Origin: an uncultured Acidobacteriota bacterium
GTDB lineage: Bacteria; Acidobacteriota; Vicinamibacteria; Marinacidobacterales; Marinacidobacteraceae
Assembly: GCA_964347715.1 (NCBI GenBank)
Contig: CAYGAO010000014.1
Coordinates: 1 to 24,405, forward strand
Length of the DNA stretch: 24,405 bases
Direction of reading: 5' to 3'
Shown: positions 5,472-19,842 of the stretch, one piece after another
Layout of the letters: the number at the start of each line of letters is the position of its first letter
Position numbering within the stretch: position 1 is the first letter of the stretch
Position numbers and translations under genes: made by a program
Notes under the pieces: model-generated
Told to the model about the DNA's origin: nothing
Databases searched by the model: none
Seen by the model: only the letters and a program-made list of their open reading frames with translations

Positions 5472-5481
5472 CTGCTACAAT
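5453..5481 (+). promoter_or_regulatory. Putative sigma70-like promoter for tmRNA precursor (TGGAGA-17 bp-TACAAT)
   Basis: TGGAGA at 5453..5458, 17-bp spacer, TACAAT at 5476..5481, about 85 nt upstream of the mature tmRNA 5' end (tmRNA is processed from a precursor by RNase P). Overlaps the divergent slt start region. Confidence 0.25.
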
Positions 5482-5561
5482 CCTACCCGTTCGCGCGACG
5501 GTGGCGCAGGTCCGGCTCTCGCGCCGGATCGGTGGTTGCCGGAGATTCTCGCGCGAGAGGA

Positions 5562-5934
5562 GGGGGCGTACTGGGTTCGACGAAGGGACATGAAGCAGCG
5601 ACTGCATGCCGGGGTTCCATCTTCCGTAAACGGTGGAGAACACACAAAAGCCAACAACGAACTGGCACTGGCTGCTTGAAGCCACGTCCTTCCTGGCCAT
5701 GCCTGCCGGGACGGGAAAGGGCGTAGATCAGGCGGGCTCTGCTGGCGGCTCTCCCGCGCCGTCGGTGAGCATCAGGGATAGTTTCCGCGGCGCGATTCGC
5801 CGGGTCGATGCGCTACGGAAGCGAAACGGGGAAAGGCGCCCTCGGGCGCGGGTTCCCGCCACGACGCGGCTAAGCATGTAGAGGTCGTTGTCGAAGACTT
5901 TCGGACGCGGGTTCGATTCCCGCCGCCTCCACCA
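5562..5934 (+). ncRNA. ssrA: tmRNA (SsrA), one-piece, tag reading frame GCC AAC AAC GAA CTG GCA CTG GCT GCT TGA (ANNELALAA*) at 5650..5679
   Basis: 5' GGGGGCGUACUGGGUUCGACG and 3' GGACGCGGGUUCGAUUCCCGCCGCCUCCACCA with encoded CCA. The 7-bp acceptor stem pairs 5562..5568 with 5924..5930 (one G-U). T-arm GGUUCGAUUCC. Internal tag ORF ends in the canonical ALAA-stop. The 3' block GUAGAGGUCGUUGUCGAAGACUUUCGGACGCGGGUUCGAUUCC matches the E. coli tmRNA 3' domain almost base for base. Confidence 0.92.
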
Positions 5935-5941
5935 CTCTCTC

Positions 5942-5973
5942 GCCGCGCCCGTTCGGGCGCGCCGGGTCTTTTC
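5942..5973 (+). terminator. Rho-independent terminator of ssrA
   Basis: GC hairpin CGCGCCC-GTTC-GGGCGCG (5943..5961) followed by the U-tract TCTTTT (5967..5972), 8 nt after the tmRNA CCA end. Confidence 0.5.
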
Positions 5974-5991
5974 GTCCGGTCGAGGCCTGAC

Positions 5992-6196
5992 GAGCGGTGG
6001 AGAAAGCCCTCGTGTGCCGACGCGGCGCGAAGCACCGCCGGGGGGGTCTCCCTCCCCGCGAAAGCGGGCGGAACGGATCGCGTCAGCGATACGGGCCGCC
6101 ACCCGGTGGGGAAAGCGCCCCGCATCCGTCCGGACGACGGGGTTCCTCGTCTCTCCGAGGACGGATTCTCATGCGGGGCGTTCTATCCACCGGCTG
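5992..6196 (+). mobile_element. MITE/REP-like structured element, copy b (full A+B, + orientation), between the ssrA terminator and the OMP stop codon
   Basis: Left end gagcggtggagaaag, right end ctatccaccggctg (imperfect 16-bp terminal inverted repeats). Internal hairpins include a GAAA-tetraloop stem (ccgccccgcGAAAgcgggcgg) and a long imperfect palindrome in the B half. Flanked by ctgac(g) on both sides. Confidence 0.85.
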
Positions 6197-6204
6197 CTGA
6201 CGGG

Positions 6205-7161
6205 TCAGAACCGGTACTTCAGGTGCAGGCCGAAGCCGTAGAGAGTGCGTTCGTTCGTCTCGAGCGTGACGGTGACCGGATTGCTCCCGTCGAGCCGGTT
6301 GCTCGCCGGGGTATGGCTGCGCAGGCGATCGATGGGGCCGGTCGTGTCGCGGAAGCTCTCGGAGGCCGTCCGCCGACCGGCGACGCCGAGCGAGACCGAA
6401 TCGTTGAGTGCGAAATCCACGCCGACGAGCACCTGGTAGCCGAGCAGGCGCGACTCCAGCTCCGTCTGGTTCGTGCTGGTCGTCGAGGCGAGGTTCTGCT
6501 GGACGGTTCGCAGATCGTCGTGGCGGTCCTCCGGAAAGTACCGGGAGATCGAGGTGATGAGCGCCGGGTCGTCGTTTCGCACCCAGGAGAGGCCGTGGTC
6601 CAGGTTCGTGAAGCCGACGCCGACGCCGAGCCCGATCCAGGGGGTGGCGCGGCTCCGGTTTGTGAAGTCGTAGTACAGGTTCCCGAACAGGTTGCGCGAG
6701 GTGGCGCTCCCGATGCGGTCGTCGGCGGCCACGACCTCGCCGTCGAGCTTCGCAACGGCCACCCCGCCGCTGCTCTCGATCCCGGAGGTCTGGTTGTACA
6801 CAGACTCCCGGTAGAAGTACTCGATCTCGACCCGCAGCCGTTCCGAGCCGGGGAACCGGTAGCCGAGCGCTCCGCCGGCCAGGATGCCGCTCGCGCCATC
6901 GAAAGCGTTGGTCCAGGCCGTCTGCGGCGCGTCCGGGTCCCCGCAGAACGCCGGCATCAGGTCGGTGAACGGATTCAGGTGCTCGTCGCAGATGCTGCCG
7001 GGCGTGTTCGCCGCCGAGCCGCTCAGCTCGAGGGCGGACGAGGAGTTCGTCCCGAGTCCCTGGCGCAGATAGAAGCCGCCCCGGGACTGGGCGCGGCCCT
7101 CGCCGGGGGCGAGGGTGGAGAGCAGGGCGCCGAGCCCGACGAGCGCCGCGAGATGTCTCAT
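6205..7161 (-). CDS. Outer-membrane beta-barrel protein (porin/OMP-like), with signal peptide and C-terminal ...KYRF
   Basis: ORF 6205..7161(-) of 318 aa. MRHLAALVGLGALLSTLAPGEGRAQ is a signal peptide. Alternating hydrophobic/aromatic beta-strand pattern (LRVEIEYFY.., GYQVLVGVDFAL.., LYGFGLHLKYRF) with terminal Phe. The SD sequence AGGAGG lies 8 nt upstream of the ATG at 7161. Confidence 0.7.
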   Translation of the reverse strand: MRHLAALVGLGALLSTLAPGEGRAQSRGGFYLRQGLGTNSSSALELSGSAANTPGSICDEHLNPFTDLMPAFCGDPDAPQTAWTNAFDGASGILAGGALGYRFPGSERLRVEIEYFYRESVYNQTSGIESSGGVAVAKLDGEVVAADDRIGSATSRNLFGNLYYDFTNRSRATPWIGLGVGVGFTNLDHGLSWVRNDDPALITSISRYFPEDRHDDLRTVQQNLASTTSTNQTELESRLLGYQVLVGVDFALNDSVSLGVAGRRTASESFRDTTGPIDRLRSHTPASNRLDGSNPVTVTLETNERTLYGFGLHLKYRF

Positions 7162-7173
7162 TCCGGATCCTCC

Positions 7174-7760
7174 TGTTCGCCGCCCGGAGGAGCTCCGGGG
7201 GCGTCCCGGAATGTTGGCACGCCGGCGCGCCCCGCCGGGCTCGGGGGACGATCCTCACGGTTCCGGCGCTCGCCAGCGCATCGACCAGAGGAGTCCCGAG
7301 ACCGCGATCGTGACCGCGGGAACCAGCCTGCCCCGGGGGGCGGCGGATCGTTCCGGTGGCGCCTGCGGGCCTCCGGTGATTTCGGGATCGGTCCCGCGGG
7401 ACGAGGGTTGCTGACGGTGATGACCGATGTCGGCCAGGTGATTCGGCAACCCGGGTGAACCGGAAAGATCGCAATGGACCCGAATGGATCCGAATTGACC
7501 TGAATTAACCCGAATTAGCCCGAATTGACCTGATTTGGCCCGAATTAGCCTGAATTGACCCGAATTGACCTGATTTGGCCCGAATCGGTCCGTCATGGGT
7601 CCGAACGCGGCTCGGATCGGTGGATCCGCGCCCATCGCGCGCCTCGGCCGCGGCCGGACGGGGCGATCAGCCCCCTGGCCCGCAACCCTTCGAAAAGTTC
7701 GGCGGTCAACCGATCCTGCCAGCCCGTCACGGGTGGGTTCGCCGCCGAGGCGGGCGCTGG
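7174..7760 (+). repeat. Long direct repeat R1 (about 85-90% identical to R2 at 9305..9720). It contains the promoter/RBS-proximal region of the OMP gene, a phased 10-bp array, and a 3' fragment of an AlbA_2/HATPase_c_4-like gene
   Basis: Direct alignment: ctgttcgccgcccgg..gctccggg..gttggcacgccggcgcg..ctcgggggacga.cctcacgg.., then ..cgcctgcgggcctccggtgatttc..ggaaagatcgcaat + decamer array + tgggtccgaacgc..ggatccgcgccca..ggacggggcgatc.agccccctggcccgca. R2 lacks ~80 bp present in R1 (about 7285..7365). Confidence 0.8.
7474..7592 (+). repeat. Phased 10-bp tandem array, about 12 units, consensus GACCCGAATT (read in the other phase, TTGACC hexamers every 10 bp)
   Basis: ggacccgaat ggatccgaat tgacctgaat taacccgaat tagcccgaat tgacctgatt tggcccgaat tagcctgaat tgacccgaat tgacctgatt tggcccgaat cggtccg. 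Confidence 0.85.
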
Positions 7761-7826
7761 CGTCAGGTCGCACTGATCCAGCCCGATCGGGGCGTCGATC
7801 AGGCTGGCGCCGATGGGCTCGTCCAC
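7593..7826 (-). pseudogene. 3' fragment of an AlbA_2/HATPase_c_4-family gene (C-terminal ~45 codons), duplicated together with R1
   Basis: ORF 7593..7826(-) ends ..DRLTAELFEGLRARGLIAPSGRGRGARWARIHRSEPRSDP*, closely parallel to the C-terminus of the intact gene at 9590..11074 (..LRRLQKDLEALRARGSIAPSGRGRGATWARIRRADRRSDP..). Similarity is lost upstream of about 7760. Confidence 0.45.
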
Positions 7827-7996
7827 CGGCGCGGGGGAGGCGCCCCCGCGCGGCGCTTCAGTCAGGATACCGGGCGGGAAGCGGGCAGAGTGAACCGGGA
7901 GGGGCCAGCGCGGCGCGGCGGTTCCGGGCGGGAGGCGTCGTCGCTTCCCCGGCCGGCGAGTGGATCCCGACTCGGCGGGTGGCGGGGGAGGGGCTG

Positions 7997-9100
7997 ATGT
8001 TCCACGACCTCCGAATCCAACGGTTCCGCCTCTTCGAGGACCTCCGGATCGACCGGCTGAGCCGCGTCAACCTGATAGCCGGGAAGAACAACACGGGCAA
8101 GACCACGGTTCTGGAAGCGCTGTTCCTGCTTTCGGGCGGGGGAGCGCCCCAACTCCTGGACCGGACCCTCGGCTTCCGAGGCATCGGCCAGGCCCTCGGT
8201 CAGATCGACCGGGTGCCCGAAACGCACTGGGAACCGCTCTTCTTCGGGTTCGAGGCCGGAGAGCCCATCGCGATCCGGGCCGAGACGGCGCGCCACGGCC
8301 CGCTGAACCTGACGCTGAGGATCGAGCGGCGAGATTCGGTGGAGGTCCGCTCGTCGCCTTCGGGCATCGCCGGGGCCACCGTCGTGGAAGGGGAACCGGC
8401 AGGGCTCGACCTGGGCCCGTCCGATCCCCGGTCGCTTCGGCTGGTCTGGCAACAGCGGGAGGAACAGCCAGCCGAGGGACGAATCGAACTGTTCGCCAAG
8501 GGCCTGCGACTTCAAAACCCCCTGGGGGCGCCGTTCCCGGCGTTCTTCGTCTCCAGCCGAACCCACGACCTGGCGACGGATGCGATGCGGCTGGGTCAGT
8601 TGCGGACGAAGAAGATGGGTGGTCGTCTGACCGAGGCGCTGCAGGCGATCGAACCCCGACTCCGGAGCGTCGAGGACAGTGTCGCGGGCGGCAGTCCCAT
8701 GATCTGGGGAGACATCGGGCTGCCCCGCCTGCTGCCCCTGGCGGCGATGGGAGAAGGAATGGCGGCGGTCACCAGCCTGGTCCTGGCGATGGCCGCTGCC
8801 GAGAAGGGGGTCGTGCTGGTGGACGAGATCGAACGCGGGATACACCACTCGGTGATGGAGGACCTGTGGCGGGTCGTGGACCGGAGTTCACGGGAGTTCG
8901 ACACTCAGGTCATCGCCACCACGCACAGCTACGAATGCCTGATGGCGGCGCAGCGGGCCTTCTCGCAGGACGGCGAGTCGGAGGCGGGGGACTTCCGGTT
9001 CCAACGGCTCGAACGGGCGCGGGACGGCGGCATGCGCTCCGTGGGACTCGATCCGGACGATCTGGCGGCGGTCGCTCGCCACGGTCTTGAAGTGCGCTAA
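7997..9100 (+). CDS. ABC-type AAA ATPase (AAA_21/AAA_15-like; the OLD/AbiL/PARIS-AriA/Septu-PtuA type of ATPase), 367 aa
   Basis: ATG at 7997 preceded by GGGGGAGGGG. Motifs seen: Walker A NLIAGKNNTGKTTVLEAL about 25 aa from the N-terminus, ABC-signature-like LPLAAMGEGMAAV, Walker B VVLVDEIERGIHH and H-loop IATTHS. The ORF-track entry 7595..9100 starts too early, inside R1. Confidence 0.8.
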   Translation: MFHDLRIQRFRLFEDLRIDRLSRVNLIAGKNNTGKTTVLEALFLLSGGGAPQLLDRTLGFRGIGQALGQIDRVPETHWEPLFFGFEAGEPIAIRAETARHGPLNLTLRIERRDSVEVRSSPSGIAGATVVEGEPAGLDLGPSDPRSLRLVWQQREEQPAEGRIELFAKGLRLQNPLGAPFPAFFVSSRTHDLATDAMRLGQLRTKKMGGRLTEALQAIEPRLRSVEDSVAGGSPMIWGDIGLPRLLPLAAMGEGMAAVTSLVLAMAAAEKGVVLVDEIERGIHHSVMEDLWRVVDRSSREFDTQVIATTHSYECLMAAQRAFSQDGESEAGDFRFQRLERARDGGMRSVGLDPDDLAAVARHGLEVR

Positions 9101-9105
9101 AGAGG

Positions 9106-9447
9106 ATGGGCAGGGAGCCCCGAGAGATCACCTCGCCGGCGCAGATTCTCGTCGAGGGGCGAGATGGCGAGCTGTTCTTGAACGTACTGATCGAGGCTCT
9201 GGCAGCGGAGGGGCGACTGACCGAGAAGCGCGCGGACCGCTCCGGGATTTCGTGCGGCAGGTCTCGGAGGGGCCAGGGGAACTTCGAGGCCCTTGATCGC
9301 CCTGTTCGCCGCCCGGACGAGCTCCGGGCGGTCCCGGACCGTTGGCACGCCGGCGCGTCCGCCGGGTCGGCTGGGTGCGGCTCGGGGGACGACCCTCACG
9401 GTCCCAGCGCTCGCCAGCTTCCGGCGGCGCCTGCGGGCCTCCGGTGA
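9106..9447 (+). pseudogene. Truncated Toprim-like (DUF4276/RloB/OLD-like) partner of the upstream ATPase. Only ~60 codons are unique before the ORF runs into repeat R2
   Basis: ATG at 9106 lies 5 nt after the ATPase TAA, with the SD sequence AAAGAGG. N-terminal ..AQILVEGRDGELFLNVLIEAL matches the hV(E)G..E..F Toprim-type opening of DUF4276/RloB/OLD proteins. No downstream DxD-type motif. Sequence from about 9300 onward belongs to repeat R2. Confidence 0.4.
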
Positions 9448-9720
9448 TTTCAGGACGGTTCGCGGACGAGGGCTGCTGACGATGACGACCGATGCCGGAC
9501 CGGGGATTCGGCAACCGGGTGAACCGGAAAGATCGCAATTGACCCGAATTGACCCGAATTGAGCTGATATTGGCCCGAATCGACCTGAATCAATCCGAAT
9601 CGGCCGGCAATGGGTCCGAACGCCGGTCGGCGCGCCGGATCCGCGCCCAGGTCGCGCCCCGGCCGCGCCCGGACGGGGCGATCGAGCCCCTGGCCCGCAG
9701 CGCTTCCAGGTCCTTCTGGA
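9305..9720 (+). repeat. Long direct repeat R2, the copy of R1. It contains the 10-bp array (9536..9606, about 7 units) and the genuine 3' end of the AlbA_2-family gene
   Basis: See R1. Array: gcaattgacc cgaattgacc cgaattgagc tgatattggc ccgaatcgac ctgaatcaat ccgaatcggc cgg. Confidence 0.8.
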
Positions 9721-11074
9721 GACGCCGGAGGTCAACCGGTTGCGAAAGCCCGGCCCGGATATCCCGGAGCGCCAGCGGATGCCCTTCGCGATCCAGCAGC
9801 GCCAGAATCGCCTTTTGCCGGTCTTCGCTCGGCTCCTTCTCCGCGATGGGGTCGGCGCTGCGTTTCGCCGCCCCGGGCTCGGGATCCGGTCGCGTCTCCG
9901 TCCCGGCGCGCCGGAACCGGACGGTCACGTTGCCCGCATCGTCCTCGATCTCGGGGCGGGGGAGGCCGGCCCGTTCCGTTTCTTCCGCGATCTTGACCGT
10001 CCCTCGACCCCACTCCTCGATCACGCCCCGCCGGTAGAAGGTCCGGGCGATGAGCGGATTCCACGGCCGCGACGGGTGCGGCCCGAAGAGCTTTTCGGGG
10101 GTCAACCCGAAGTGGAGGGTTCCGGGCGAGGTGACCTCCAGCCGGTCGTCGTAAACGGCGATTCCCGGCGAACCGCCGCCGACGGAGTAATCGCGGTGGC
10201 AGAGCGCGTTCGCCAGAGCCTCGCGAGTGGCCAGCGTCGGGTAGAGCGGCTCGTCGATGCGATCCATGCGACCCGGTTCGAACCGGCTGGCGATCGGCAG
10301 CGTGTCCCGCAGGAAACGCTCGCCGGCGCGGAGCAGCGCGAAGGCGTTTCCGTAGAACTGCCGGTTGTCGAGGAACTCCATGCGGTCGAGGCCCCGGAAC
10401 CGGGCGACCCGAAGCCGGCACTGCGGCAACTCGACCTCGAGCCGTCGTTCGTTGCCGAACACCACCGCCGCCGCCCGCAAGGGGACGCCGTCCCGGCAGA
10501 GACCCAGACCGGTCAACAACTCCCCGGGATCGCGGGTGCCGGGATCCTCGAGTCGGCCGCGTCGAATCGCCTCTTCCACCGTGCGTCGAATCTCGGTCGC
10601 GTCCAGATCCCCGACCGACCAGCCGGCCGCCGGCTGATTCTCCCAACGCTGGTCACCATGTAGGCGCTCCAACAGTACGCGGTGGTACTCGTCGGTCGGC
10701 ATGACGCGCGTCGTGTTGCCGACCCGGCGGTAGGCAGAGCCACGATACTCGTACGGCTTCGCCGTTCCCGGAGTCACGGAAACGACCACGATCTTCAGCC
10801 CTTCGGCGACGGGCACCCGCTCGACGGCCGGGGACGCCGGCGGGTCGATCCGCGCGAGCTCCTCGCTCAGCTGCTCGATGGTCCGTTCGCTCACCTGCTG
10901 CCCCACGGGCTTGCCCTCCGGCGTCACCCCGAGGAGCACCCGGCCGCCCTGCTGATTCAACATGGCGCAGACCGTCTTGGCGGCCTCGCGGCGCATCCCC
11001 GTCATTTTCTTCAGCTCCAGCGTTTCCGATTCGCCGGCTGCGACCAGCGCCGCGATCCCGGCTGCGGTGATCAT
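9590..11074 (-). CDS. AlbA_2 (divergent AAA, Schlafen-like) + HATPase_c_4 + C-terminal wHTH protein, the kind often annotated as 'putative transcriptional regulator / RecG-like'
   Basis: Start chosen at MITAAGIAALVAAGESETLELKK (ATG about 11074, overlapping the upstream stop as ATGA). Motifs: LELKKMTG..AKTVCAMLNQQGGRVLLGV (AlbA_2), LREALANALCHRDYSVGGGSPGIAVYDDRLEVTSPGTL (HATPase_c_4). The ORF-track N-terminal 67 aa are upstream extension. Confidence 0.8.
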   Translation of the reverse strand: MITAAGIAALVAAGESETLELKKMTGMRREAAKTVCAMLNQQGGRVLLGVTPEGKPVGQQVSERTIEQLSEELARIDPPASPAVERVPVAEGLKIVVVSVTPGTAKPYEYRGSAYRRVGNTTRVMPTDEYHRVLLERLHGDQRWENQPAAGWSVGDLDATEIRRTVEEAIRRGRLEDPGTRDPGELLTGLGLCRDGVPLRAAAVVFGNERRLEVELPQCRLRVARFRGLDRMEFLDNRQFYGNAFALLRAGERFLRDTLPIASRFEPGRMDRIDEPLYPTLATREALANALCHRDYSVGGGSPGIAVYDDRLEVTSPGTLHFGLTPEKLFGPHPSRPWNPLIARTFYRRGVIEEWGRGTVKIAEETERAGLPRPEIEDDAGNVTVRFRRAGTETRPDPEPGAAKRSADPIAEKEPSEDRQKAILALLDREGHPLALRDIRAGLSQPVDLRRLQKDLEALRARGSIAPSGRGRGATWARIRRADRRSDPLPADSD

Positions 11075-12842
11075 GCCCGCCCAGTACCCCGGTCGCCGTC
11101 CGGCTCGGGGAAGGGTTCGGGAAGCCCCCTGACGATCTTCACGGTCTCGACGCTCACATGGACGATCCGCCGGAACGCGGTCACCAGGTCTTCGGGCTTC
11201 TCGAACCACCCGTTCGGGTCGTTCAGTATCCCGCTCCGCTTGTCGCGCGTCACCCGGTAGCGGTCCATGAACCACTCGACCGGCGACCTGCCGTTCACCA
11301 CGTACTCGTGCGCCTCCGGCGGAATCCCGGCCAGACGAACGAACTCGTTCAGTATCAGCACGCTCCGGTCCTCCTTGTCGGCGAACCGCATCCTGCGGGT
11401 GCCGATACGGAAGTGCCTGGACTCCAGCCCCAGGAGCTTCGACGGTACGACCCGGAGCGGGTATTCGGCGCAGGTCTCATAGCCCAGATGGAGTTTCCCC
11501 AACGCTCGTCCGGCCTCCACGAAGGCGTCGAAGTCGGGAGCCATCGGAATCCGGGGAAGGCCCTTGGCCAGGTCGTTCGCGAAACGCTTGCCGTAGGCAG
11601 GCGCGTGGAGAACCCCGTACACATAGTCGAAGATGTCGTCCTTCGTGATCGTGTCGCGCCCGTAGTGATCCCGAAAGAGGTGCAGCGCCCAGTCCGTGAT
11701 GTTGTCCACCGGACCCATATCCGCCCTGAAGAGTTCGTCGTCGTCAAAGACACCCCCGTGGGTACTTGGGGTAGGTCCATCTGGGGAAGCACTGCCCGAA
11801 CTCGAGGAAGTGGAAGTCGGGCATTCGGTCGGCGAGGAGGACCGAGAATGGTTTCGTCGCGCCCCTCCCAGGCACGCAGATGACGCGATTCTCCGCTCGT
11901 ACTGGTAACGCGGGAAACACTGGCCCTTCGACACCAGCTCGAAGTCGGGCATCGTGTCGGCCATGAGCGCCGCTCCTCCCCGAGAGCGGCTTCGATCTTC
12001 GCCGGGTCGGTGGTCACCGGGAGCTCCAGCTCCTGGAGCGAGGCGTCCTCGTCGTTCCGCCCGGCGCGGGTGTCCGAGCAGATCCCGATGTATCGGTGCT
12101 CCACTGTCTGCTGTTCGGCGAAGGCGCGCATGGACTGCTGCAGCAGCGAGATCGAGGGGACCAGGTAGAGGACCCGCCCGCCGATCCCGACCATCTCCTC
12201 GGCGATCCGCATCGCGGTGAAGGTCTTGCCCGTGCCGCAGGCCATGACCAGCTTCCCGCGGTCGGCGCTCCCGAACCCGGCCCGCACCGCCTCGATCGCC
12301 TGTTGCTGGTGCTTCCGCGCGGTGAACGGCTCGGTCCGCCAGCGGAGCGCCTCCGGCGCCTCCTCGAGCAGGTTCGGCCAGTCCACGGGCCGTTTCGCCA
12401 GGTCGGCGAACTGGAGCACCTGGACCTCGGGCCGCTGCCCCCGGATCATGGCGAGCGCGTTCGGCCCCCATCCGCGCCCGGTGTCCACGACCATGCGGGC
12501 GGTGAAGTGCTTCTTCCCGGAGGCGGCGAGGAACGAGTCGAGGTCGCCCTTCGAGATCCGGGTGTTCGGCCGGTAGCACTTGCACTGGATGGCGCAGAAG
12601 CCGCCGTCGCGCTCTTCGGCGACGAGATCCACCCCGGTGTCCCGGGCCGAGCGCCCGAACCTGACGGCCCAGTCGGCCCACCGCGAGACCGAGGCGAACC
12701 GGTCCCGGTAGAGCGGATCCTCCAGGAGGTATCTCCGGATCAGCCGCTCGAAGAGCGCCCCCTGCTCGGCCGGCGAGCCGGACCGCTCGAAGATCTGGTC
12801 CAGGACTGTCCGCAGGTCGTGCATCGGCCGCCGCTCCCCCAT
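11071..12842 (-). pseudogene. Decayed type ISP restriction-modification enzyme. An N-terminal Mrr-like PD-(D/E)xK nuclease and the first helicase motifs run in one frame (12842..~11985). A frameshift then joins a C-terminal type-ISP-like domain in another frame (~11750..11071). Most of the helicase, the whole MTase and most of the TRD are missing
   Basis: ORF 11355..12842(-) reads GVDLVAEERDGGFCAIQCKCY (nuclease), then MACGTGKTFTAMRIAEE (helicase motif I) and YLVPSISLLQQ, and turns to nonsense after ..AALGEERR. ORF 11071..13224(-) carries real-looking sequence only from ..LMADTMPDFELVSKGQCFPRY.. and MGPVDNITDWALHLFRDHYG...HEYVVNGRSPVEWFMDRYRVTRDKRSGILNDPNGWF (the type ISP C-terminal domain pattern) up to the stop. 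Total length ~1.8 kb against ~4.7 kb for an intact enzyme. A ~70-bp internal duplication sits at 11772..11845 and 11896..11975. Confidence 0.65.
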
Positions 12843-13012
12843 CCCGATCCGGGCGGAGCGGATTATCCCCGGCGGGCCGGCGCGCCGGGGGCTTGAATCG
12901 CCGGGGCGTCCCCGAATATGCTCCGCGCGCTTCCGGGCGCCGTCGCGCAGGGTCGGCGGCGGCCCCGGTGTCTCGGAGGGTGCCGCCCGGCGGGGTGGAA
13001 GGAAGGTTGCTG

Positions 13013-14341
13013 ATGCTCAGGCGAATCCGGTGGATCGCGCCGACGGTGCTCCTGTCCGCGCTCCTGTGGGCCGAGCCGGCTCTCGCCCAGGACGGGGACG
13101 CGATGAGCACGGTCGGGCTCGACACGGTCTTCGTCCTCCTGTCGGCGTTCCTCGTGTTCCTGATGCAGGCAGGGTTCGGGATGCTCGAGGCCGGGTTCAT
13201 CCGCGCGAAGAACACCTCGAACATCCTGACGAAGAACTTCCTCGACTACTGCTTCGCCTCGCTCGGATTCTTCATCTTCGGCTACGCGATCATGTTCTCC
13301 GAGGGGAACGGGCTCTTCGGGACGAGCGGCTTCCTGATGCTCGGAGCCGAATCTCCGGCGGATGTGCCGCTGTGGGCGTTCTGGCTGTTCCAGGCGGCGT
13401 TCTGCGGCGCGGCGGCGACGATCGTCGCCGGCGGGATGGCCGAGCGGATGAAGTTCACCGCCTACCTGGCCTACTCCTTCATCATCTCGGCGTTCGTGTA
13501 TCCGGTCGTCGGACACTGGACCTGGGGCGGCGGCTGGCTCGCCGGACTCGACTTCTTCGACTTCGCCGGCTCGACGGTCGTGCACCTGACGGGCGGGGCC
13601 ACCGCGCTCGTGGGCGCGTGGATCCTCGGCCCCCGGCTCGGGAGGTTCAACGCCGACGGCACGGTGAACTTCATCGCCGGGCACTCGGTGCCGCTCGCCA
13701 CGCTCGGGACCTTCATCCTCTGGTTCGGGTGGTTCGGCTTCAACGCCGGATCGAATCTGGCGGTCGGAGACGGCGAGGCGATTTCGCTGATCGCGATCAA
13801 CACGAACCTCGCCGCCGCCGCCGGGGCGCTCGTGACCACCTTCATCTCCTGGATCATCTGGGGGAAGCCGGACCTGTTCTTCACCATGAACGGCGCCCTC
13901 GCCGGGCTCGTCTCCGTCACCGCTCCGTGCGCGGTGGTGAGTCCGTTCGCGGCGATCTGGATCGGCGTCGTCGGAGGGTTCGTGGTCGTCTTCGCCACCA
14001 CCGCGCTCACGAAGATCCGGATAGACGACCCCTGCGGCGCCTTCCCGGTGCACGGGGCCTGCGGGTTCTGGGGCACGCTCGCGGTCGGCCTCTGGGGTCG
14101 CGAGCCGCTCGGCCTCGCCCGGGAAGGCCTCTTCTACGGCGGCGGTTTCGAGCAACTCGGGATCCAGGCGCTCGGCAGCCTCGCCACCGCCGCCTTCATC
14201 ATGGTGGCGATGGGGCTCGTCTTCCTCACGATCAAGGCGCTCTTCGGCCTCCGGGTCTCCCGCGCCGAGGAGATCCGCGGCCTCGACGAGAACGAACACG
14301 GCATGGAGTCCTACACCGGGTTCCAGATCCTGAGCTCCTGA
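13013..14341 (+). CDS. amt: Ammonium transporter (Amt family) with signal peptide
   Basis: ORF 12893..14341(+). The likely start is the ATG at 13013 (MLRRIRWIAPTVLLSALLWAEPALAQ), with GGAAGG upstream. Amt hallmarks seen: DTVFVLLSAFLVFLMQAGFGMLEAGFIR, ..FDFAGSTVVHLTGG.., ..WFGWFGFNAGS.., ..DDPCGAFPVHGACGFWG. Confidence 0.85.
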   Translation: MLRRIRWIAPTVLLSALLWAEPALAQDGDAMSTVGLDTVFVLLSAFLVFLMQAGFGMLEAGFIRAKNTSNILTKNFLDYCFASLGFFIFGYAIMFSEGNGLFGTSGFLMLGAESPADVPLWAFWLFQAAFCGAAATIVAGGMAERMKFTAYLAYSFIISAFVYPVVGHWTWGGGWLAGLDFFDFAGSTVVHLTGGATALVGAWILGPRLGRFNADGTVNFIAGHSVPLATLGTFILWFGWFGFNAGSNLAVGDGEAISLIAINTNLAAAAGALVTTFISWIIWGKPDLFFTMNGALAGLVSVTAPCAVVSPFAAIWIGVVGGFVVVFATTALTKIRIDDPCGAFPVHGACGFWGTLAVGLWGREPLGLAREGLFYGGGFEQLGIQALGSLATAAFIMVAMGLVFLTIKALFGLRVSRAEEIRGLDENEHGMESYTGFQILSS

Positions 14342-14372
14342 TGTCCTCACCGCCCACGGGGCACCCCCGCAC

Positions 14373-14714
14373 ATGAAACTGGTCACCGCGCTCATCCAGC
14401 CTGAAGTCCTGCCGAATGTGCAGAACGAACTCTTCGCCGTCCAGATTCGCAAATTCTCGGTGAGCGCCGGCGTCGGACACGGCACCCAGAAGGGCTGGGA
14501 AGCCACCTTCGGCGGCGTCCAGACCCAGGTGAACGTACTGAAGCGCGTCCGGGTGGAGATCGCCGTGAACGACGACTTCGTCGAACGGGCGGTGAACGCG
14601 GTGATGCGCGGCGCCCAGACCGGAGAAGCCGGCGACGGGAAGATCTTCATCACCGAGATCCAGGACTGCGTCCGCATCCGCACCGGCGAACGCGGCTCGC
14701 AGGCCATCGGCTGA
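14373..14714 (+). CDS. glnK: PII nitrogen regulatory protein (GlnK-like, amt-linked) with a non-canonical T-loop lacking Tyr51
   Basis: MKLVTALIQPEVL.., B-loop TGEAGDGKIF, C-terminal VRIRTGERG, 113 aa. T-loop GHGTQKGWEATFGGVQTQ against the canonical GRQKGHTELYRGAEY. Confidence 0.8.
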   Translation: MKLVTALIQPEVLPNVQNELFAVQIRKFSVSAGVGHGTQKGWEATFGGVQTQVNVLKRVRVEIAVNDDFVERAVNAVMRGAQTGEAGDGKIFITEIQDCVRIRTGERGSQAIG

Positions 14715-14723
14715 GGCCGTCCC

Positions 14724-16139
14724 GTGTCGCTGCGCCAGGTCCGCCGGCTGATCGCCGACAAGGACATCCGCCATGTGGACTTCCGTTTCGCCGACCTCCT
14801 CGGCGGCTGGCGGCACATCACCTATGCGGTCGAGGCCTTCGAGGAGGACATGTTCGTCGGGGGCGTCGGCTTCGACGGCTCCTCGGTCCGGGGCTTCCAG
14901 GGGATCGAGGACTCGGACATGCTGCTCCGCCCCGATCCGGAGAGCGTCTTCGTGGATCCGTTCTACAAGGATCCGACGCTCGTATTCATCTGCAATGTCA
15001 AGGATCCGGTGACGCTGCGCCTCTATTCGCGCGACCCGCGTTACATCGCCGAGAAGGCGACCCGGTTCCTGAACAGCTCCGCGCTCGCGGACACCTGCTA
15101 CATCGGGCCCGAGGCCGAGTTCTACATCTTCGACGATGTCCGGTTCGACCAGACGGTGAACGAGGCGTTCTACCGGGTGGATTCGGCCTGGGGCGGATGG
15201 AACACCGGACGCGAGGAAGGGCCGAATCTCGGCCACAAGCCGGGGCTGAAGCAGGGCTACTTCCGGATGCCGCCGACCGACCCCTACCAGGATGTGCGCT
15301 CGCAGATGGTCACGAACCTCCGGAGCTGCGGCGTGGACGCCGAACTCCACCACCAGGAGGTCGGTAGTGGCGGACAGGCCGAGATCGGCATCCGCTACAA
15401 GCCGCTCATCGAGATGTCCGACGCGGTGATGAAGTTCAAGTACACGATCAAGAACACCGCCCATCAGCACGGGAAGACGGCGACCTTCATGCCGAAGCCG
15501 CTGCTCGGCGACAACGGCTCCGGCATGCACTGCCATGTGAGCCTCTGGCGCGACGGCAAGAACCTGTTCCACGACCAGGACGGCTATGCCGGGCTCAGCG
15601 ACACCGGGCGCTTCTTCATCGGCGGCGTCCTGAAGCACGCCGGTTCGCTCCTCGCGTTCACCTGTCCCACGGCGAACTCCTACCGGCGCCTCGTCCCGGG
15701 TTTCGAGGCGCCGGTGAAGCTCGTCTATTCGCAGCGGAACCGCTCGGCGGCGGTGCGGATCCCGATGTATTCGGCAGCCGCGGCGGCGAAGCGGATCGAG
15801 TTCCGCTGCCCCGATCCGAGCGCGAACCCCTACCTCGCGTTCTCGGCGCTGCTGATGGCCGGGGTGGACGGCATCCTGGAGCGGACCGAGCCGCCCGCTC
15901 CCGTGGACAAGGACATCTACGAGCTGCCGGAGGCCGAACAGCGAAAGATCGGCGACACCCCGCCGACGCTCAAGGCGGCGCTTCGTTCGCTCGAAGACGA
16001 CAACGAGTACCTGTTGCGTGGCGGCGTGTTCACGCCGGATGTCGTGGACACCTGGATTCGCTACAAGCGCGCGAACGAGCTGGCCTACATGGACCAGCGC
16101 CCGCACCCGGCGGAGTTCGCGCTCTACTACGACTGCTAG
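14724..16139 (+). CDS. glnA: Glutamine synthetase type I
   Basis: GTG at 14724. Collinear with E. coli GlnA: ..VDFRFADLLGG.., FDGSS, ..GPEAEFYIFDD.., ..KPLLGDNGSGMHCHVSL.., ..NSYRRLVPGFEAPV.., ..RNRSAAVRIP.., C-terminal PHPAEFALYYDC. Confidence 0.92.
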   Translation: MSLRQVRRLIADKDIRHVDFRFADLLGGWRHITYAVEAFEEDMFVGGVGFDGSSVRGFQGIEDSDMLLRPDPESVFVDPFYKDPTLVFICNVKDPVTLRLYSRDPRYIAEKATRFLNSSALADTCYIGPEAEFYIFDDVRFDQTVNEAFYRVDSAWGGWNTGREEGPNLGHKPGLKQGYFRMPPTDPYQDVRSQMVTNLRSCGVDAELHHQEVGSGGQAEIGIRYKPLIEMSDAVMKFKYTIKNTAHQHGKTATFMPKPLLGDNGSGMHCHVSLWRDGKNLFHDQDGYAGLSDTGRFFIGGVLKHAGSLLAFTCPTANSYRRLVPGFEAPVKLVYSQRNRSAAVRIPMYSAAAAAKRIEFRCPDPSANPYLAFSALLMAGVDGILERTEPPAPVDKDIYELPEAEQRKIGDTPPTLKAALRSLEDDNEYLLRGGVFTPDVVDTWIRYKRANELAYMDQRPHPAEFALYYDC

Positions 16140-16348
16140 CAGCCCGTGGACAAGACGCCCCGCAAGGGAATCCGTCCTCGAAGAGGTGGGGAACCCCTTC
16201 GTCCGGGCGGATGCGGGGCGCTTTCCCCACCGGATGGCGGCCCGAATCGCTGGCGCGATCCGTTCCGCTCTCTTTCGCGGGGAGGGAGGACCCTCCCCGG
16301 CGGCGCTTCGCGCCGCGTCGGCGCACCAGGGACTTTCTCCACAGCCTG
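16140..16348 (-). mobile_element. MITE/REP-like structured element, copy c (full, inverted orientation), starting 1 nt after the glnA TAG stop
   Basis: cagcccgtggacaag...ctttctccacagcctg, the reverse complement of copies b and e. It explains the artefactual N-terminal extension of ORF 16211..17737 and ORF 14232..16367(-). Confidence 0.85.
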
Positions 16349-18568: not shown

Positions 18569-18850
18569 CGTTTCAGGCGCCGGCCGGTCGGATTCCGGAA
18601 CGCTGGCCGGCGGCGCGCGGCGCCGAACGAGCCGGTCGTGAGGCGTTCATGGATTCGGTGTCAGGCGACGGGGAATTCGACGGCCTCCCGTGAGCCCGGT
18701 CGGGTTCGGCCATTACGGTTTCGTCCGGCGACACCCCCATCTCGGGCGCCTCGCAACGAGCGCCTCCGCCTGCCGATCGCCGCCGCCGCCGTCTTTCCGG
18801 CCGCGGCGCGGATCCAGCGCGAAAGGCGGAACCTCGGGGCATCGGCGCGG

Positions 18851-19110
18851 AAGCGCTTCGATCCATCGTCCTCGCTCCGGCTCGTCGTGCTCGCTGGCAA
18901 CGGCGGGCGGCTCGGGGGGGCGGAAGCGCTCCGATCCATCGTCCTCGCTCCGTCTCGTCGTGCTCGCCGGCAACGGTGGGCGGCTCGGGGGGGCGGAAGC
19001 GCTCCGATCCATCGTCCTCGCTCCGTCTCGTCGTGCTCGCCGGCAACGGTGGGCGGCTCGGGGGGCGAAATCGAGCACGCCGATCCATCGTCCTCGATCC
19101 GGCTGCCGCG
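18851..19110 (+). repeat. 73-bp tandem repeat, about 3.3 copies (unit aagcgcttcgatccatcgtcctcgctccggctcgtcgtgctcgctggcaacggcgggcggctcgggggggcgg)
   Basis: Unit starts at 18851, 18924 and 18997 (period 73, >90% identity). A fourth unit is diverged. Because the period is not a multiple of 3, ORF-track frames shift between units. Confidence 0.85.
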
Positions 19111-19840: not shown

Positions 19841-19842
19841 TG

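What the first reader, a model, noticed from the sequence alone, without database searches (positions are those of the whole stretch)
5562..12892. Accessory/defence-like patch (OMP, ATPase cassette, Schlafen-like AlbA_2 gene, type ISP remnant) inserted directly 3' of tmRNA, with no integrase
tmRNA 3' ends are classic genomic-island attachment sites. From the ssrA terminator up to the amt-glnK-glnA block, all 7 kb is accessory-type content in various stages of decay: a truncated Toprim partner, a frameshifted RM enzyme and duplicated gene fragments. I saw no integrase gene and no obvious second copy of the tmRNA 3' end. This looks like an old, eroded island or defence hotspot.
Basis: inference. 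Interest (0 to 1): 0.55.

Follow-up and report, generated by a model that had tools for sequence, protein, structure and literature searches.

The report
Decaying defence-gene patch beside tmRNA
The 7 kb between the tmRNA gene and the ammonium-assimilation operon of this uncultured acidobacterium is a lineage-specific patch of phage-defence-type genes, two of them broken, which is a known kind of genomic hotspot; the broken restriction gene also belongs to a subfamily with an unexplained, conserved frameshift-like signal.

Summary
The tmRNA gene (5562-5934) is followed by about 6.9 kb (5935-12892) that is absent from the same site in relatives. One Vicinamibacteria genome has ssrA followed within about 117 nt by amt-glnK-glnA. 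Another has a different 8.3-kb insert between ssrA and amt. There is no integrase and no repeat of the ssrA 3' end.

Contents:
- a MITE-like repeat;
- an intact outer-membrane-protein gene;
- a PDC-M38/AbiL-like pair, with the ATPase intact and the DUF3226 partner internally deleted;
- an intact AlbA_2/HATPase_c_4 gene;
- a Type ISP restriction gene with one 3.2-kb internal deletion and a frame change.

A diverged 0.5-kb direct duplication carrying a 10-bp tandem array brackets the ATPase cassette. Three independent assemblies share this architecture, so it is not an assembly artefact.

This is an acidobacterial example of a known kind, an ssrA-flanked variable or defence hotspot like P. aeruginosa cDHS2. 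How the DNA entered is unresolved.

One side observation is odd. The Type ISP subfamily carries an out-of-frame duplicated segment that evolves as if it were coding in its own frame. That frame ends in a cassette matching the prfB +1 frameshift site 16/16 in homologs and 15/16 in the window.

The parts
5562..5934 (+). tmRNA gene (ssrA), tag peptide ANNELALAA; left anchor of the variable segment
   Evidence: ARAGORN. Rfam RF00023, 152.9 bits, model positions 1-374. The last 30 nt are identical in relatives L001-L004, and all similarity ends at the CCA.
5943..5975 (+). ssrA intrinsic terminator (GC hairpin followed by a T-run)
   Evidence: Sequence read; terminator scan places the stem at 5951-5967.
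5993..6201 (.). Copy of a roughly 210-bp MITE/REP-like structured repeat with terminal inverted repeats (CAGCAGSCTGTGGAG...TCCACNGGCTGCTG)
   Evidence: Other copies lie at 16138-16345(-), 22678-22874, 19738-19847 (partial), 1-106 and 24351-24405, the last two at the contig ends. Fold z-score is -4.0. The element is absent from relatives' loci.
6205..7161 (-). Putative outer-membrane beta-barrel protein, 318 aa, intact, with host-like codon usage (GC3 0.92)
   Evidence: Weak Pfam hits to OMP_b-brl, Surface_Ag_2 and Opacity, all below cut-off. C-terminal KYRF and a signal-like N-terminus are read from the sequence. GC3. No homolog near ssrA in relatives. 3 of 3 strain SNPs are synonymous.
7166..7720 (.). 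Copy A of the diverged direct duplication. It holds the non-coding region upstream of the OMP gene, the 10-bp array, and a pseudo-fragment of the AlbA_2 3' end (7581-7712, minus strand, with an in-frame stop).
   Evidence: the repeat finder families D1-D9. Alignment A1 shows 73-93% identity by segment, with indels. tblastn with AlbA_2 residues 518-560 gives 68% identity, E=3e-11.
7473..7585 (.). Tandem array of 11 units of 10 bp (consensus AATTGACCCG)
   Evidence: TRF. The motif occurs only in the two arrays: 10 matches against 1.08 expected by chance. It is absent from all other loci.
7721..7996 (.). Unassigned GC-rich (0.78) spacer upstream of the ATPase gene
   Evidence: No similarity to any locus, no Rfam match, no promoter-like site. 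GC.
7997..9100 (+). PDC-M38A / AbiLi-like ABC-type ATPase, 367 aa, intact (Walker A GKNNTGKT, Walker B VVLVDE, H-loop TTHS)
   Evidence: Pfam AAA_21/AAA_15. PADLOC PDC-M38A E=3e-48 and AbiLi E=8e-48. 100% coverage against homologs of 347-392 aa. Motifs read. 4 of 4 strain SNPs are synonymous.
9106..9296 (+). Remnant of the partner gene (DUF3226 = PDC-M38B). The N-terminal ~37 codons (ITSPAQILVEG...) and the C-terminal ~25 codons (DREARGPLRDFVRQVSEG..., 9219-9293) are in different frames. About 155 codons are missing. The stop is at 9294-9296.
   Evidence: All three intact homolog loci have a 212-232-aa DUF3226 gene directly after the ATPase, and it scores as PDC-M38B. Alignment and BLASTP give E=2e-5 for the N-terminus. 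The C-terminal piece is co-linear but weak on its own, E=0.06.
9295..9740 (.). Copy B of the duplication. It starts at the stop codon of the DUF3226 remnant, contains a 5-unit array at 9537-9590, and overlaps the true 3' end of the AlbA_2 gene.
9590..11074 (-). AlbA_2 (Schlafen-like) + HATPase_c_4 protein, 494 aa, intact. Its ATG overlaps the stop of the Type ISP remnant by 4 nt (ATGA).
   Evidence: Pfam PF04326 and PF13749. More than 3000 homologs at 63-74% identity, lengths 456-486 aa, across phyla. Homologs sit as solo genes in varied contexts. Gene call in an independent assembly.
11071..11985 (-). Type ISP C-terminal fragment (frame -1), colinear with residues 356-644 of the closest homolog's C-terminal part
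   Evidence: Pfam Type_ISP_C E=4e-61. PADLOC profile positions 1376-1637 of 1646. tblastn 68% identity over 292 aa.
11964..12842 (-). Type ISP N-terminal fragment (frame -2): Mrr_cat_2 nuclease plus helicase motifs I and Ia, ending at ...TTDPAKIEAAL
   Evidence: Pfam Mrr_cat_2 E=4e-37 and ResIII. PADLOC profile positions 4-291 of 1646. tblastn to residues 9-291 of a 1643-aa plasmid enzyme. Deletion size: 4248 bp in the plasmid against 1055 bp here.
11743..11890 (-). X2 is an out-of-frame diverged duplicate of the segment just upstream (X1). In its own frame it ends in CGGGGGTGTCTTTGAC (11758->11743), a prfB-type +1 frameshift cassette.
   Evidence: A fourth genome was added. The prfB cassette is defined in PMC13245932.
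12893..12922 (+). Promoter-like element of amt (TTGAAT-N18-TATGCT); right boundary of the variable segment
   Evidence: It is the only such match in the regions scanned. The counterpart in L001 is TTGACC-N18-TACGCT.
13013..16139 (+). amt-glnK-glnA, the conserved right flank
   Evidence: Pfam. 82-84% identity for amt/glnA and 65% for glnK, syntenic in L002. The amt start is taken from the independent gene call and from alignment with L001/L002.

Best explanation
Window 5935-12892 is a lineage-specific accessory segment. It fills a variable site between two conserved anchors: SLT-ssrA on the left and the amt-glnK-glnA operon with its promoter on the right. It holds the remains of at least two defence-type acquisitions and is now mostly non-functional as defence.

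Shown:
- A related genome has an empty site, and another has unrelated cargo at the same site.
- The Type ISP restriction-modification gene lacks most of its helicase, its coupler and its whole methyltransferase because of one 3.2-kb deletion, and the two remaining parts are out of frame. It can neither restrict nor modify.
- The PDC-M38/AbiL-like pair keeps an intact ATPase but has lost the core of its DUF3226 partner.
- The AlbA_2/HATPase_c_4 gene and the OMP gene are intact.
- The ATPase cassette is bracketed by two diverged direct copies of a roughly 0.5-kb unit made of the OMP upstream region, a 10-bp array and the AlbA_2 3' end.

Inferred:
- The block OMP / 0.5-kb unit / AlbA_2 / Type ISP was there first.
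- The PDC-M38 cassette arrived later by homology-dependent recombination within that 0.5-kb unit, either a single crossover of a circular intermediate or unequal exchange with a related locus. This left the flanking duplication.
- No site-specific recombinase is resident now. Turnover at this site therefore proceeds either by recombination in the conserved flanks or through ssrA-targeting islands whose integrase and attR have since been deleted.
- The surviving orphan ATPase and the AlbA_2 protein may still be expressed, but no complete known defence system remains.
For: Synteny:
- The SLT-ssrA adjacency is present in 5 close relatives, and ssrA lies within about 2-4 kb of SLT in 9 more distant Acidobacteriota loci.
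- L002 has ssrA followed by amt-glnK-glnA-band7 after about 117 nt.
- L001 has a different 8.3-kb insert between ssrA and amt.
- L003 has an HTH-DNA methyltransferase after ssrA.
- No homolog of any patch gene is found in those loci.

Boundaries:
- Similarity among relatives stops exactly at the ssrA CCA.
- An amt promoter-like element is conserved with L001.

The architecture is real:
- A SPAdes short-read contig from another sample matches window 3788-13959 at 99.93% without gaps.
- An 89-kb long-read contig matches at 99.7%.

Gene states:
- Type ISP: profile positions 4-291 and 1376-1637 of 1646 are present. A 4248-bp span in a full-length plasmid gene corresponds to 1055 bp here.
- PDC-M38: homologs always pair the ATPase with DUF3226, and here only the two ends of that gene remain.
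- The ATPase and AlbA_2 are full length against their homologs.

Duplication. Copy B starts at the partner gene's stop codon, and copy A starts 5 nt from the OMP ATG.

No integrase and no att repeat.

Precedent: P. aeruginosa core defence hotspot cDHS2 is anchored on ssrA (PMC10250203).
Against: - Only one relative shows the empty site and only one other shares the ssrA...amt frame, so the direction of change (gain here or loss there) rests on parsimony.
- In L003-L005, amt is not within 10 kb of ssrA, so the ancestral neighbour of ssrA is uncertain for the wider clade.
- GC and GC3 of the patch genes (0.81-0.96) overlap those of core genes (0.84-0.94), so composition gives no independent support for foreign origin.
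- The order of acquisition and the crossover model for the duplication are inference from a single genome. The non-coding part of the duplication (about 88-93% identity) is more similar than the coding fragment (73%), and no simple model predicts this.
- The cargo in L001 is not clearly defence-related, so 'defence hotspot' may be too narrow and 'variable hotspot' is safer.
Confidence: 0.75

Rival explanations
1. The patch is a classical ssrA-targeting integrative island, or several in tandem, that entered through a tyrosine integrase recombining with the 3' end of ssrA. The integrase and the distal att repeat were later lost by the same deletion processes that broke the defence genes.
For: - The 3' ends of tRNA and tmRNA genes are standard integration sites (Williams 2002, cited in PMC10250203).
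- Divergence among relatives begins exactly at the ssrA CCA.
- A more distant Acidobacteriota locus (L027) has an exact 18-nt repeat of the ssrA 3' end 3.7 kb downstream, E=4e-6.
- Large deletions did occur in this patch.
Against: - There is no integrase domain or remnant, and no ssrA 3' repeat longer than chance.
- The DNA next to ssrA is a terminator, a MITE-like repeat and the 3' end of an OMP gene, not an integrase.
- No integrase was found in the inserts of L001, L003 or L027 either, among the ORFs scanned.
- At 62-70% protein identity, intergenic DNA would be unalignable anyway, so the sharp boundary at the CCA is not diagnostic.
Confidence: 0.35
2. The site is an integrase-independent hotspot. 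Cargo is exchanged by homologous recombination in the conserved flanks (SLT-ssrA and amt-glnK-glnA) after transformation or transduction, and cassettes inside it are shuffled through shared internal homology such as the 0.5-kb duplicated unit.
For: - Core flanks are conserved while the content is unrelated in three genomes.
- No mobility genes are present.
- The diverged direct duplication precisely brackets the PDC-M38 cassette at gene boundaries.
- Clustered, mostly synonymous SNP tracts between two strains inside the Type ISP fragments look like imported recombination tracts.
- Many hotspots lack mobile-element signatures (PMC10121019 and PMC5635113, listed; not read in detail).
Against: - No strain lacking or swapping a cassette was found: all three assemblies of this population share the same architecture.
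- The mechanism is inferred from a single genome.
- The duplication could equally be the residue of two related islands in tandem.
Confidence: 0.4
3. The arrangement is ancestral core genome. Relatives such as L002 lost it by deletion, and the 'decay' is ordinary pseudogenisation of resident genes.
For: - OMP codon usage is host-like (GC3 0.92), and the patch as a whole is compositionally unremarkable.
- Only one empty-site genome is available.
Against: - None of the five genes has a homolog at this site in five relatives.
- L001 carries unrelated genes in the same interval.
- The closest homologs of the ATPase (65%), AlbA_2 (74%) and Type ISP (about 68%) sit in unrelated contexts with transposases or other defence genes, several in other phyla.
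Confidence: 0.05
4. The deletions, frameshifts and duplication are assembly or sequencing artefacts in a metagenome-assembled contig.
For: - The window is a whole 24,405-bp MAG contig, and both its ends lie in a repeat.
- Some homolog loci from low-coverage long-read assemblies show probable homopolymer frameshifts.
Against: - An independent short-read assembly from another sample reproduces window 3788-13959 with 7 substitutions and no gaps.
- A long-read contig reproduces the same region with substitutions only.
Confidence: 0.02

Closest known systems
Core defence hotspot cDHS2 of Pseudomonas aeruginosa (Johnson et al. 2023, PMC10250203)
   Same: It is a variable, defence-rich segment anchored on the tmRNA gene ssrA on one side and conserved core genes on the other, with different cargo in different genomes. 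The window shows the same layout.
   Different: cDHS2 was defined from hundreds of genomes, is almost always occupied, and often carries recognisable mobile elements. Here only three genomes share the frame, one of them is empty, no mobility gene is present, and most of the cargo is broken.
tRNA/tmRNA-targeting integrative islands and prophages (Williams 2002, cited in PMC10250203)
   Same: The insert lies immediately 3' of ssrA, and it is absent from a related genome.
   Different: Two defining features are missing: the adjacent tyrosine integrase and the direct repeat of the ssrA 3' end.
AbiL / PARIS-type two-gene systems (ABC ATPase plus TOPRIM/OLD-like effector; PMC13064643) and PADLOC candidate PDC-M38
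   Same: The ATPase scores equally well for AbiLi and PDC-M38A. Homologs are always followed by a small partner gene.
   Different: The partner family here is DUF3226 (PDC-M38B), not RloB or DUF4435. Its Toprim fold is only suggested by an LVEG...RDAE motif pattern and was not tested. PDC-M38 is an unvalidated candidate, and no literature was found on it. In the window the partner is destroyed.
Type ISP restriction-modification enzymes (LlaGI/LlaBIII type; full-length example WP_301916291.1 on Rhodococcus ruber plasmid NZ_CP129902)
   Same: The N-terminal Mrr nuclease with the start of the helicase, and the C-terminal specificity domain, are clearly homologous: 43% and 42% identity to the plasmid enzyme and about 64-68% to metagenomic homologs.
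   Different: About 1085 residues are missing (most of the helicase, the coupler and the methyltransferase), and the two parts are in different frames. Independent internal deletions at other junctions occur in other metagenomic homologs, so decay by internal deletion seems common in this family.
prfB (release factor 2) programmed +1 frameshift site (PMC13245932)
   Same: The 16-nt cassette (SD-like A/CGGGGG, UAU spacer, CUU UGA, then C) is present in phase at the end of the out-of-frame X2 segment. It matches 16/16 in L191 (the E. coli form) and in L093/L094 (the P. fluorescens form), and 15/16 in the window. The +1 frame is the one that encodes the conserved C-terminal domain.
   Different: In prfB the zero frame starts at the gene's initiation codon. 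Here the annotated frame is open straight through the site, and no route into the X2 frame was found. Some homologs' protein sequences at this site (for example IFGD and VFHE) are incompatible with a UGA there.

Membership tests
tmRNA-targeting integrative genomic island | Lies directly 3' of the ssrA gene | tested here: met
   The patch starts at 5935, one base after the CCA.
tmRNA-targeting integrative genomic island | Encodes a site-specific (tyrosine or serine) integrase, usually next to the att site | tested here: not met
   No integrase or recombinase domain in any ORF scanned with Pfam or PADLOC. DNA not assigned to a gene or gene remnant totals about 1.2 kb.
tmRNA-targeting integrative genomic island | Direct repeat of the ssrA 3' end at the distal boundary (attR) | tested here: not met
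   The best matches are 11-nt exact or 14 nt with 2 mismatches, scattered at chance level.
tmRNA-targeting integrative genomic island | Absent from the same site in related genomes | tested here: met
   L002 has ssrA followed by amt after about 117 nt.
Core-gene-flanked variable / defence hotspot | Conserved core genes on both sides in related genomes | tested here: met
   The hypothetical gene, SLT and ssrA on the left, and amt-glnK-glnA-band7 on the right, are syntenic in L002. The left flank is conserved in L001-L005, and amt lies on the right in L001.
Core-gene-flanked variable / defence hotspot | Different cargo in different genomes at the same site | tested here: met
   Three states are seen: 0.1 kb (L002), 8.3 kb of unrelated genes (L001) and 6.9 kb (window).
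Core-gene-flanked variable / defence hotspot | Cargo enriched in defence systems across genomes | tested here: inconclusive
   The window has Type ISP, PDC-M38 and AlbA_2. L003 has an HTH-methyltransferase. L001 has only a Phd antitoxin. There are too few genomes to judge.
Type ISP restriction-modification enzyme | Single polypeptide with Mrr nuclease, SF2 helicase motor, coupler, N6-adenine methyltransferase and C-terminal specificity domain | tested here: not met
   Only profile positions 4-291 and 1376-1637 of 1646 remain, in two frames. This is a remnant, not a functional member.
PDC-M38 / AbiL-like two-gene system | ABC-type ATPase with intact Walker A, Walker B and H-loop | tested here: met
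PDC-M38 / AbiL-like two-gene system | Intact partner gene (DUF3226 / PDC-M38B, about 210-230 aa) immediately downstream | tested here: not met
   Only about 37 N-terminal and about 25 C-terminal codons remain, in different frames.
PDC-M38 / AbiL-like two-gene system | Partner has a Toprim/OLD-like nuclease fold | not tested
   No PDB sequence match. Pfam gives only DUF3226. The structure tools could not accept the locus-derived protein. Only the LVEG...RDAE motif pattern is suggestive.
AlbA_2 (Schlafen-like) / HATPase_c_4 protein | Both domains present in a full-length ORF | tested here: met
   PF04326 E=3e-20 and PF13749 E=2e-22. 94-98% coverage against homologs of 456-486 aa.
Outer-membrane beta-barrel protein | Significant match to an OMP family, or a beta-barrel fold | tested here: inconclusive
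   Three OMP families hit, all below their curated cut-offs; the best is 22.8 bits against a cut-off of 28.7. The signal-like N-terminus and terminal KYRF are supportive. No structure was predicted.
prfB-type programmed +1 frameshift site | SD-like GGGGG, 3-nt spacer, CUU UGA shifty stop and a following C, in phase with an incoming reading frame | tested here: met
   Window: CGGGGGTGTCTTTGAC at 11758->11743. L093 and L094: CGGGGGTATCTTTGAC. L191: AGGGGGTATCTTTGAC. All are in the X2 frame. The cassette is defined.
prfB-type programmed +1 frameshift site | Ribosomes arrive in the zero frame from a defined start codon | tested here: not met
   The X2 frame is open for only 89-118 codons, has no evident start or slippery entry site, and the annotated frame reads through the site without a stop.
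prfB-type programmed +1 frameshift site | Frameshifting demonstrated (reporter assay or peptide) | not testable with these tools
   This needs experiments.

The most novel reading that the evidence does not exclude
The Type ISP subfamily to which the window's remnant belongs may use recoding. It carries a 128-nt out-of-frame duplicate (X2) that has stayed under purifying selection in its own frame in all four genomes available at nucleotide level. The substitution pattern in 11 homologous proteins points the same way. The X2 frame ends in a complete, in-phase prfB-type +1 frameshift cassette that leads into the frame of the C-terminal specificity domain. If ribosomes do translate X2, by internal initiation or by a second recoding event, this would be a programmed +1 frameshift, or dual-frame decoding, in a restriction-modification enzyme. 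In the window the gene is dead, so the signal is a fossil there.
Probability: 0.2. Interest if true: 0.75.

Novelty: new member of a known kind. Interest (0 to 1): 0.38.

Why it matters
The patch extends a known pattern to an uncultured, high-GC Acidobacteriota (Vicinamibacteria) lineage: variable, defence-rich DNA anchored on the tmRNA gene. It also shows how such a site looks when it decays. The restriction enzyme was gutted by one internal deletion, the presumed effector of a two-gene system was removed while its ATPase was kept, and a diverged duplication marks a probable cassette insertion. This is useful for annotation but not surprising.

Two things could matter more if followed up:
- The conserved out-of-frame segment and prfB-like cassette in a Type ISP subfamily, which would be a new case of bacterial recoding.
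- The 0.5-kb non-coding module with a helically phased 10-bp array. It is better conserved between its two copies than the adjacent coding DNA, and it sits exactly at cassette boundaries.

Tried and rejected
- ssrA 3' repeat. I searched for a direct repeat of the ssrA 3' end with blastn-short and Hamming scans at 14-40 nt. Only chance matches turned up.
- Composition and GC3 as evidence of foreign origin. Patch genes (0.81-0.96) overlap core genes (0.84-0.94), so the test is uninformative.
- Metagenome scan with the SLT protein for more relatives. The best hits were only 34-42% identical and were of no use for synteny.
- Pfam scan of extra ORFs in L027 and L001 for integrases. No hits, and one search was wasted.
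- Lenient Rfam scan of the patch. Nothing beyond the tmRNA.
- Sigma-70-type promoter scans in the duplicated unit. None found; only the amt promoter-like site matched.
- Similarity of the patch to known plasmids and phages. Only distant Type ISP genes on actinobacterial plasmids matched, and nothing matched in phages.
- Conserved Type ISP / AlbA_2 linkage. Rejected, because AlbA_2 homologs are solo genes and Type ISP homologs have other neighbours.
- Conserved 'mini Type ISP' (Mrr plus C-terminal domain) family. Rejected, because other short homologs have different deletion junctions.
- The remnant as a chimera of two different Type ISP genes, based on the diverged X1/X2 repeat. Rejected, because the same X1/X2 arrangement is present in homologs L093, L094 and L191 and is a subfamily feature.
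- A second frameshift signal at the N-part/C-part split seen in L093. It looks like a single-base indel in a G/C run in a 3x assembly, and L094 has an IS110 insertion there. Not pursued.
- Viral-contig scan for the frameshift cassette. It gave 15 hits, none in a Type ISP homolog.
- Literature searches for DUF3226 and PDC-M38. No papers found.

Full report
**Source and gene map**

The window is a complete 24,405-bp contig with about 70% G+C. Its SLT transglycosylase is 62-70% identical to those of five Vicinamibacteria (Acidobacteriota) MAGs. Most mechanical ORFs in such DNA are shadows, so I called genes from GC3 and from domain hits.

The order is as follows:
- a hypothetical gene, an aminotransferase and SLT/TPR at 3231-5471(-);
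- the tmRNA gene at 5562-5934(+);
- the patch;
- amt 13013-14341, glnK and glnA;
- band-7, a histidine phosphatase, an acyltransferase, CarD and tRNAs.

**Checking the observation**

- The tmRNA gene is full length at 152.9 bits and has its own terminator.
- The OMP gene (6205-7161, minus strand) has only sub-threshold matches to three beta-barrel OMP families. It also has a signal-like N-terminus and ends in KYRF.
- The ATPase is a complete 367-aa protein at 7997-9100. It scores E about 1e-48 for both PADLOC AbiLi and PDC-M38A and aligns end to end with 120 homologs.
- The AlbA_2 + HATPase_c_4 gene (9590-11074, minus strand) is intact. Its family is highly conserved and crosses phyla, at 63-74% identity.
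- No ORF carries an integrase domain.
- The last 14-40 nt of ssrA have no repeat above chance anywhere in the window.

**The broken genes, more precisely**

Type ISP remnant:
- The N-terminal piece (11964-12842, frame -2) covers PADLOC profile positions 4-291 of 1646. That is the Mrr nuclease and helicase motifs I and Ia.
- The C-terminal piece (11071-11985, frame -1) covers positions 1376-1637.
- Against a full-length 1643-aa enzyme on a Rhodococcus ruber plasmid, the two pieces map to residues 9-291 and 1359-1643.
- A 4248-bp span of that gene corresponds to 1055 bp here, which means a single deletion of about 3.19 kb.
- Against the closest homolog (L093), the C-terminal piece is one uninterrupted 292-residue alignment at 68% identity.
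- The gene therefore suffered one deletion plus a frame change. It has no methyltransferase and no complete motor.

The ATPase partner:
- In three homologous loci the ATPase is followed directly by a 212-232-aa DUF3226 protein, which scores as PDC-M38B.
- In the window, the ORF after the ATPase matches only the first ~37 residues (ITSPAQILVEG...; BLASTP E=2e-5).
- A second, co-linear match to the last ~18 residues lies in another frame and ends at a stop at 9294-9296.
- The partner is therefore internally deleted, not simply truncated.
- Its Toprim nature is only suggested by an E...DAE motif pattern and was not tested.

**The duplication**

A unit of about 530 bp occurs twice in direct orientation, at 7166-7720 and 9295-9740. 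Identity is 86-93% in the non-coding left part and 73% in the right part, with several indels.

Each copy contains a tandem array of 10-bp units (consensus AATTGACCCG): 11 units in copy A and 5 in copy B. The motif occurs nowhere else in the window, with 10 matches against 1.08 expected. It is also absent from every other locus fetched.

The right end of copy B is the true 3' end of the AlbA_2 gene. The matching part of copy A is a 44-codon pseudo-fragment at 68% amino-acid identity, with an in-frame stop.

Copy A begins 5 nt from the OMP start codon. Copy B begins at the stop codon of the DUF3226 remnant. The two copies therefore bracket the PDC-M38 cassette exactly.

I read this as the footprint of a homology-dependent insertion of that cassette, or of two related modules joined in tandem and then trimmed. 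That is inference. No simple model explains why the non-coding part is better conserved than the coding fragment.

**Is it real?**

Three assemblies from at least two samples share the architecture.
- A SPAdes contig matches window 3788-13959 with seven substitutions and no gaps.
- An 89-kb long-read contig differs only by substitutions in this region.

Assembly artefact is excluded.

**Synteny, the decisive test**

SLT and ssrA are adjacent in L001-L005. ssrA also lies within a few kilobases of SLT in nine more distant Acidobacteriota loci.

| Locus | What follows ssrA |
|---|---|
| L002 | amt-glnK-glnA-band7 after about 117 nt |
| L001 | amt, 8.3 kb downstream; the interval holds DUF3667, an AraC regulator, a Phd antitoxin and hypothetical proteins |
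| L003 | an HTH-DNA methyltransferase |
| L004, L005 | a hydroxyproline-type catabolic operon |

No patch gene has a homolog in any of these loci. Similarity among relatives stops at the ssrA CCA. An amt promoter-like element, TTGAAT-N18-TATGCT at 12893-12922, is shared with L001.

Composition is not diagnostic. GC3 is 0.81-0.96 in patch genes and 0.84-0.94 in core genes.

**What it does now**

No complete known defence system remains. The restriction enzyme is dead, and the PDC-M38 pair lacks its presumed effector.

The ATPase keeps its Walker A, Walker B and H-loop motifs. All 4 of its strain SNPs are synonymous, as are all 3 in the OMP gene. These two genes may still be under selection, although the counts are small.

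By analogy with PARIS and AbiL, where the ATPase is the sensor or antitoxin and the TOPRIM protein is the effector (PMC13064643), losing the effector while keeping the ATPase is the outcome expected to be tolerated. That is analogy, not evidence.

**How it got there**

This is unresolved.
- An eroded ssrA-targeting island fits the position. It also fits the 18-nt ssrA 3' repeat seen 3.7 kb downstream of ssrA in the distant locus L027.
- Recombination in conserved flanks, with cassette shuffling through internal homology, fits three things: the absence of any mobility gene, the bracketing duplication, and the clustered, mostly synonymous SNP tracts inside the Type ISP fragments.

I give them 0.35 and 0.40.

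**Comparison with known systems**

The closest analogue is P. aeruginosa core defence hotspot cDHS2, which is defined with ssrA as one marker (PMC10250203). As a classical tmRNA island, the patch fails two defining features: the integrase and the att repeat. I therefore file it as a new member of a known kind.

**Side observation inside the Type ISP remnant**

While mapping the deletion I found that the C-terminal fragment contains two diverged copies, 128 nt apart, of the segment ...ICVPG.G.TK.FS.L.AD.MPD......GQCFPR..Y.
- X1 is in the annotated frame.
- X2 (11771-11890) is shifted by two bases. The annotated protein reads it as a Ser/Pro/Thr-rich linker.

This is not decay in the window. The same arrangement is present in L093, L094 and L191 at the nucleotide level. 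Judging from the linker sequence, it is also present in all eight of the further homologs examined that have a linker. A ninth homolog, P0304, has a single in-frame copy.

X2 evolves as if it were coding in its own frame.
- Pairwise differences among the three genomes compared (window, L093, L094) are 10-18% at its own codon positions 1 and 2, and 33-35% at position 3. The genuine C-terminal domain shows 20-27% and 47-50%. Raw counts including a fourth genome, L191, show the same position-3 excess.
- In the annotated frame this puts most changes at second codon positions.
- Across 11 proteins, inferred amino-acid-changing substitutions in the linker fall at positions 2 and 1 in a ratio of 754:288. 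The ratio in the C-terminal domain is 2503:2447.

In all four genomes the X2 frame ends at a prfB-type cassette:

| Genome | Cassette | Match |
|---|---|---|
| L191 | AGGGGGTATCTTTGAC | the E. coli prfB site |
| L093, L094 | CGGGGGTATCTTTGAC | the P. fluorescens prfB site |
| Window (11758->11743) | CGGGGGTGTCTTTGAC | 15/16 to the P. fluorescens site |

The cassettes come, and the definition of the prfB cassette from PMC13245932. A +1 shift at this site leads into the frame of the C-terminal domain.

Points against a working frameshift:
- The annotated frame is open through the site.
- I found no way for ribosomes to enter the X2 frame.
- Some homologs' sequences exclude a UGA at this position.
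- All four nucleotide-level examples are disrupted genes.

I record it as unexplained. I put the probability at about 0.2 that intact family members use recoding here.

**Verdict**

The finding is correct, and its interpretation passes the test its author proposed. It is an ordinary kind of feature in an under-studied phylum, with two unexplained details worth a follow-up.

Noticed in passing
window 11743-12018 (minus strand); L093 9033-9306; L094 9159-9432; L191 about 6472-6745: A Type ISP subfamily carries a 128-nt out-of-frame duplicate (X2). It is conserved in its own frame, more strongly than the real C-terminal domain, and ends in a prfB-type +1 frameshift cassette (A/CGGGGG-TAT-CTT-TGA-C; TGT spacer in the window). 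The +1 frame is the C-domain frame. No route into the X2 frame was found.
   Followed up: partly
window 5993-6201, 16138-16345(-), 22678-22874, 19738-19847 (partial), 1-106 and 24351-24405: A MITE/REP-like structured repeat of about 210 bp with terminal inverted repeats has at least five copies in 24 kb. Both contig ends lie in copies, and one copy sits directly after the ssrA terminator. It was not found in relatives' loci and has no Rfam match.
   Followed up: partly
window 7473-7585 and 9537-9590: Tandem arrays of a 10-bp unit (AATTGACCCG), spaced at one helical turn and AT-rich in a 70% GC genome. They are found only in the two copies of the 0.5-kb duplication, next to the AlbA_2 3' end. 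Possible roles are a protein-binding array, curved DNA or a relic centromere-like site. None was tested.
   Followed up: partly
window 11353-12453, compared with L084: Between two strains 99.7% identical, 10 of 12 SNPs inside the dead Type ISP fragments are synonymous in the original frames. They are clustered: six lie in 27 bp at 11588-11614. This looks like tracts imported by recombination from an allele that evolved under selection.
   Followed up: partly
proteins P0241, P0243, P0244, P0242; loci L093, L094, L191: Many metagenomic Type ISP homologs are also damaged. The damage includes independent in-frame internal deletions at different junctions, an IS110 insertion, a frameshift, and a truncation next to a reverse transcriptase and a recombinase. 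Decay of this enzyme family appears to be frequent.
   Followed up: partly
L027 about 1796-1813, against the tmRNA at 5540-5897: A more distant Acidobacteriota genome has an exact 18-nt direct repeat of the ssrA 3' end 3.7 kb downstream (E=4e-6). This is the classic att signature, but no integrase or other Pfam domain was found in the ORFs between them.
   Followed up: partly
window 18847-19101: A 73-bp tandem repeat (3.5 copies, 92% matches) lies inside an ORF with no Pfam hit, between the phosphatase and acyltransferase genes. BLAST offsets suggest that its copy number differs between assemblies of the same population.
   Followed up: no
L090 2431-2595 and L091 51-215: The AlbA_2/HATPase_c_4 homolog closest but one to the window's is preceded by a 54-aa fragment of a Type I restriction helicase C-terminus. 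This is another AlbA_2 gene next to a restriction-enzyme remnant.
   Followed up: no
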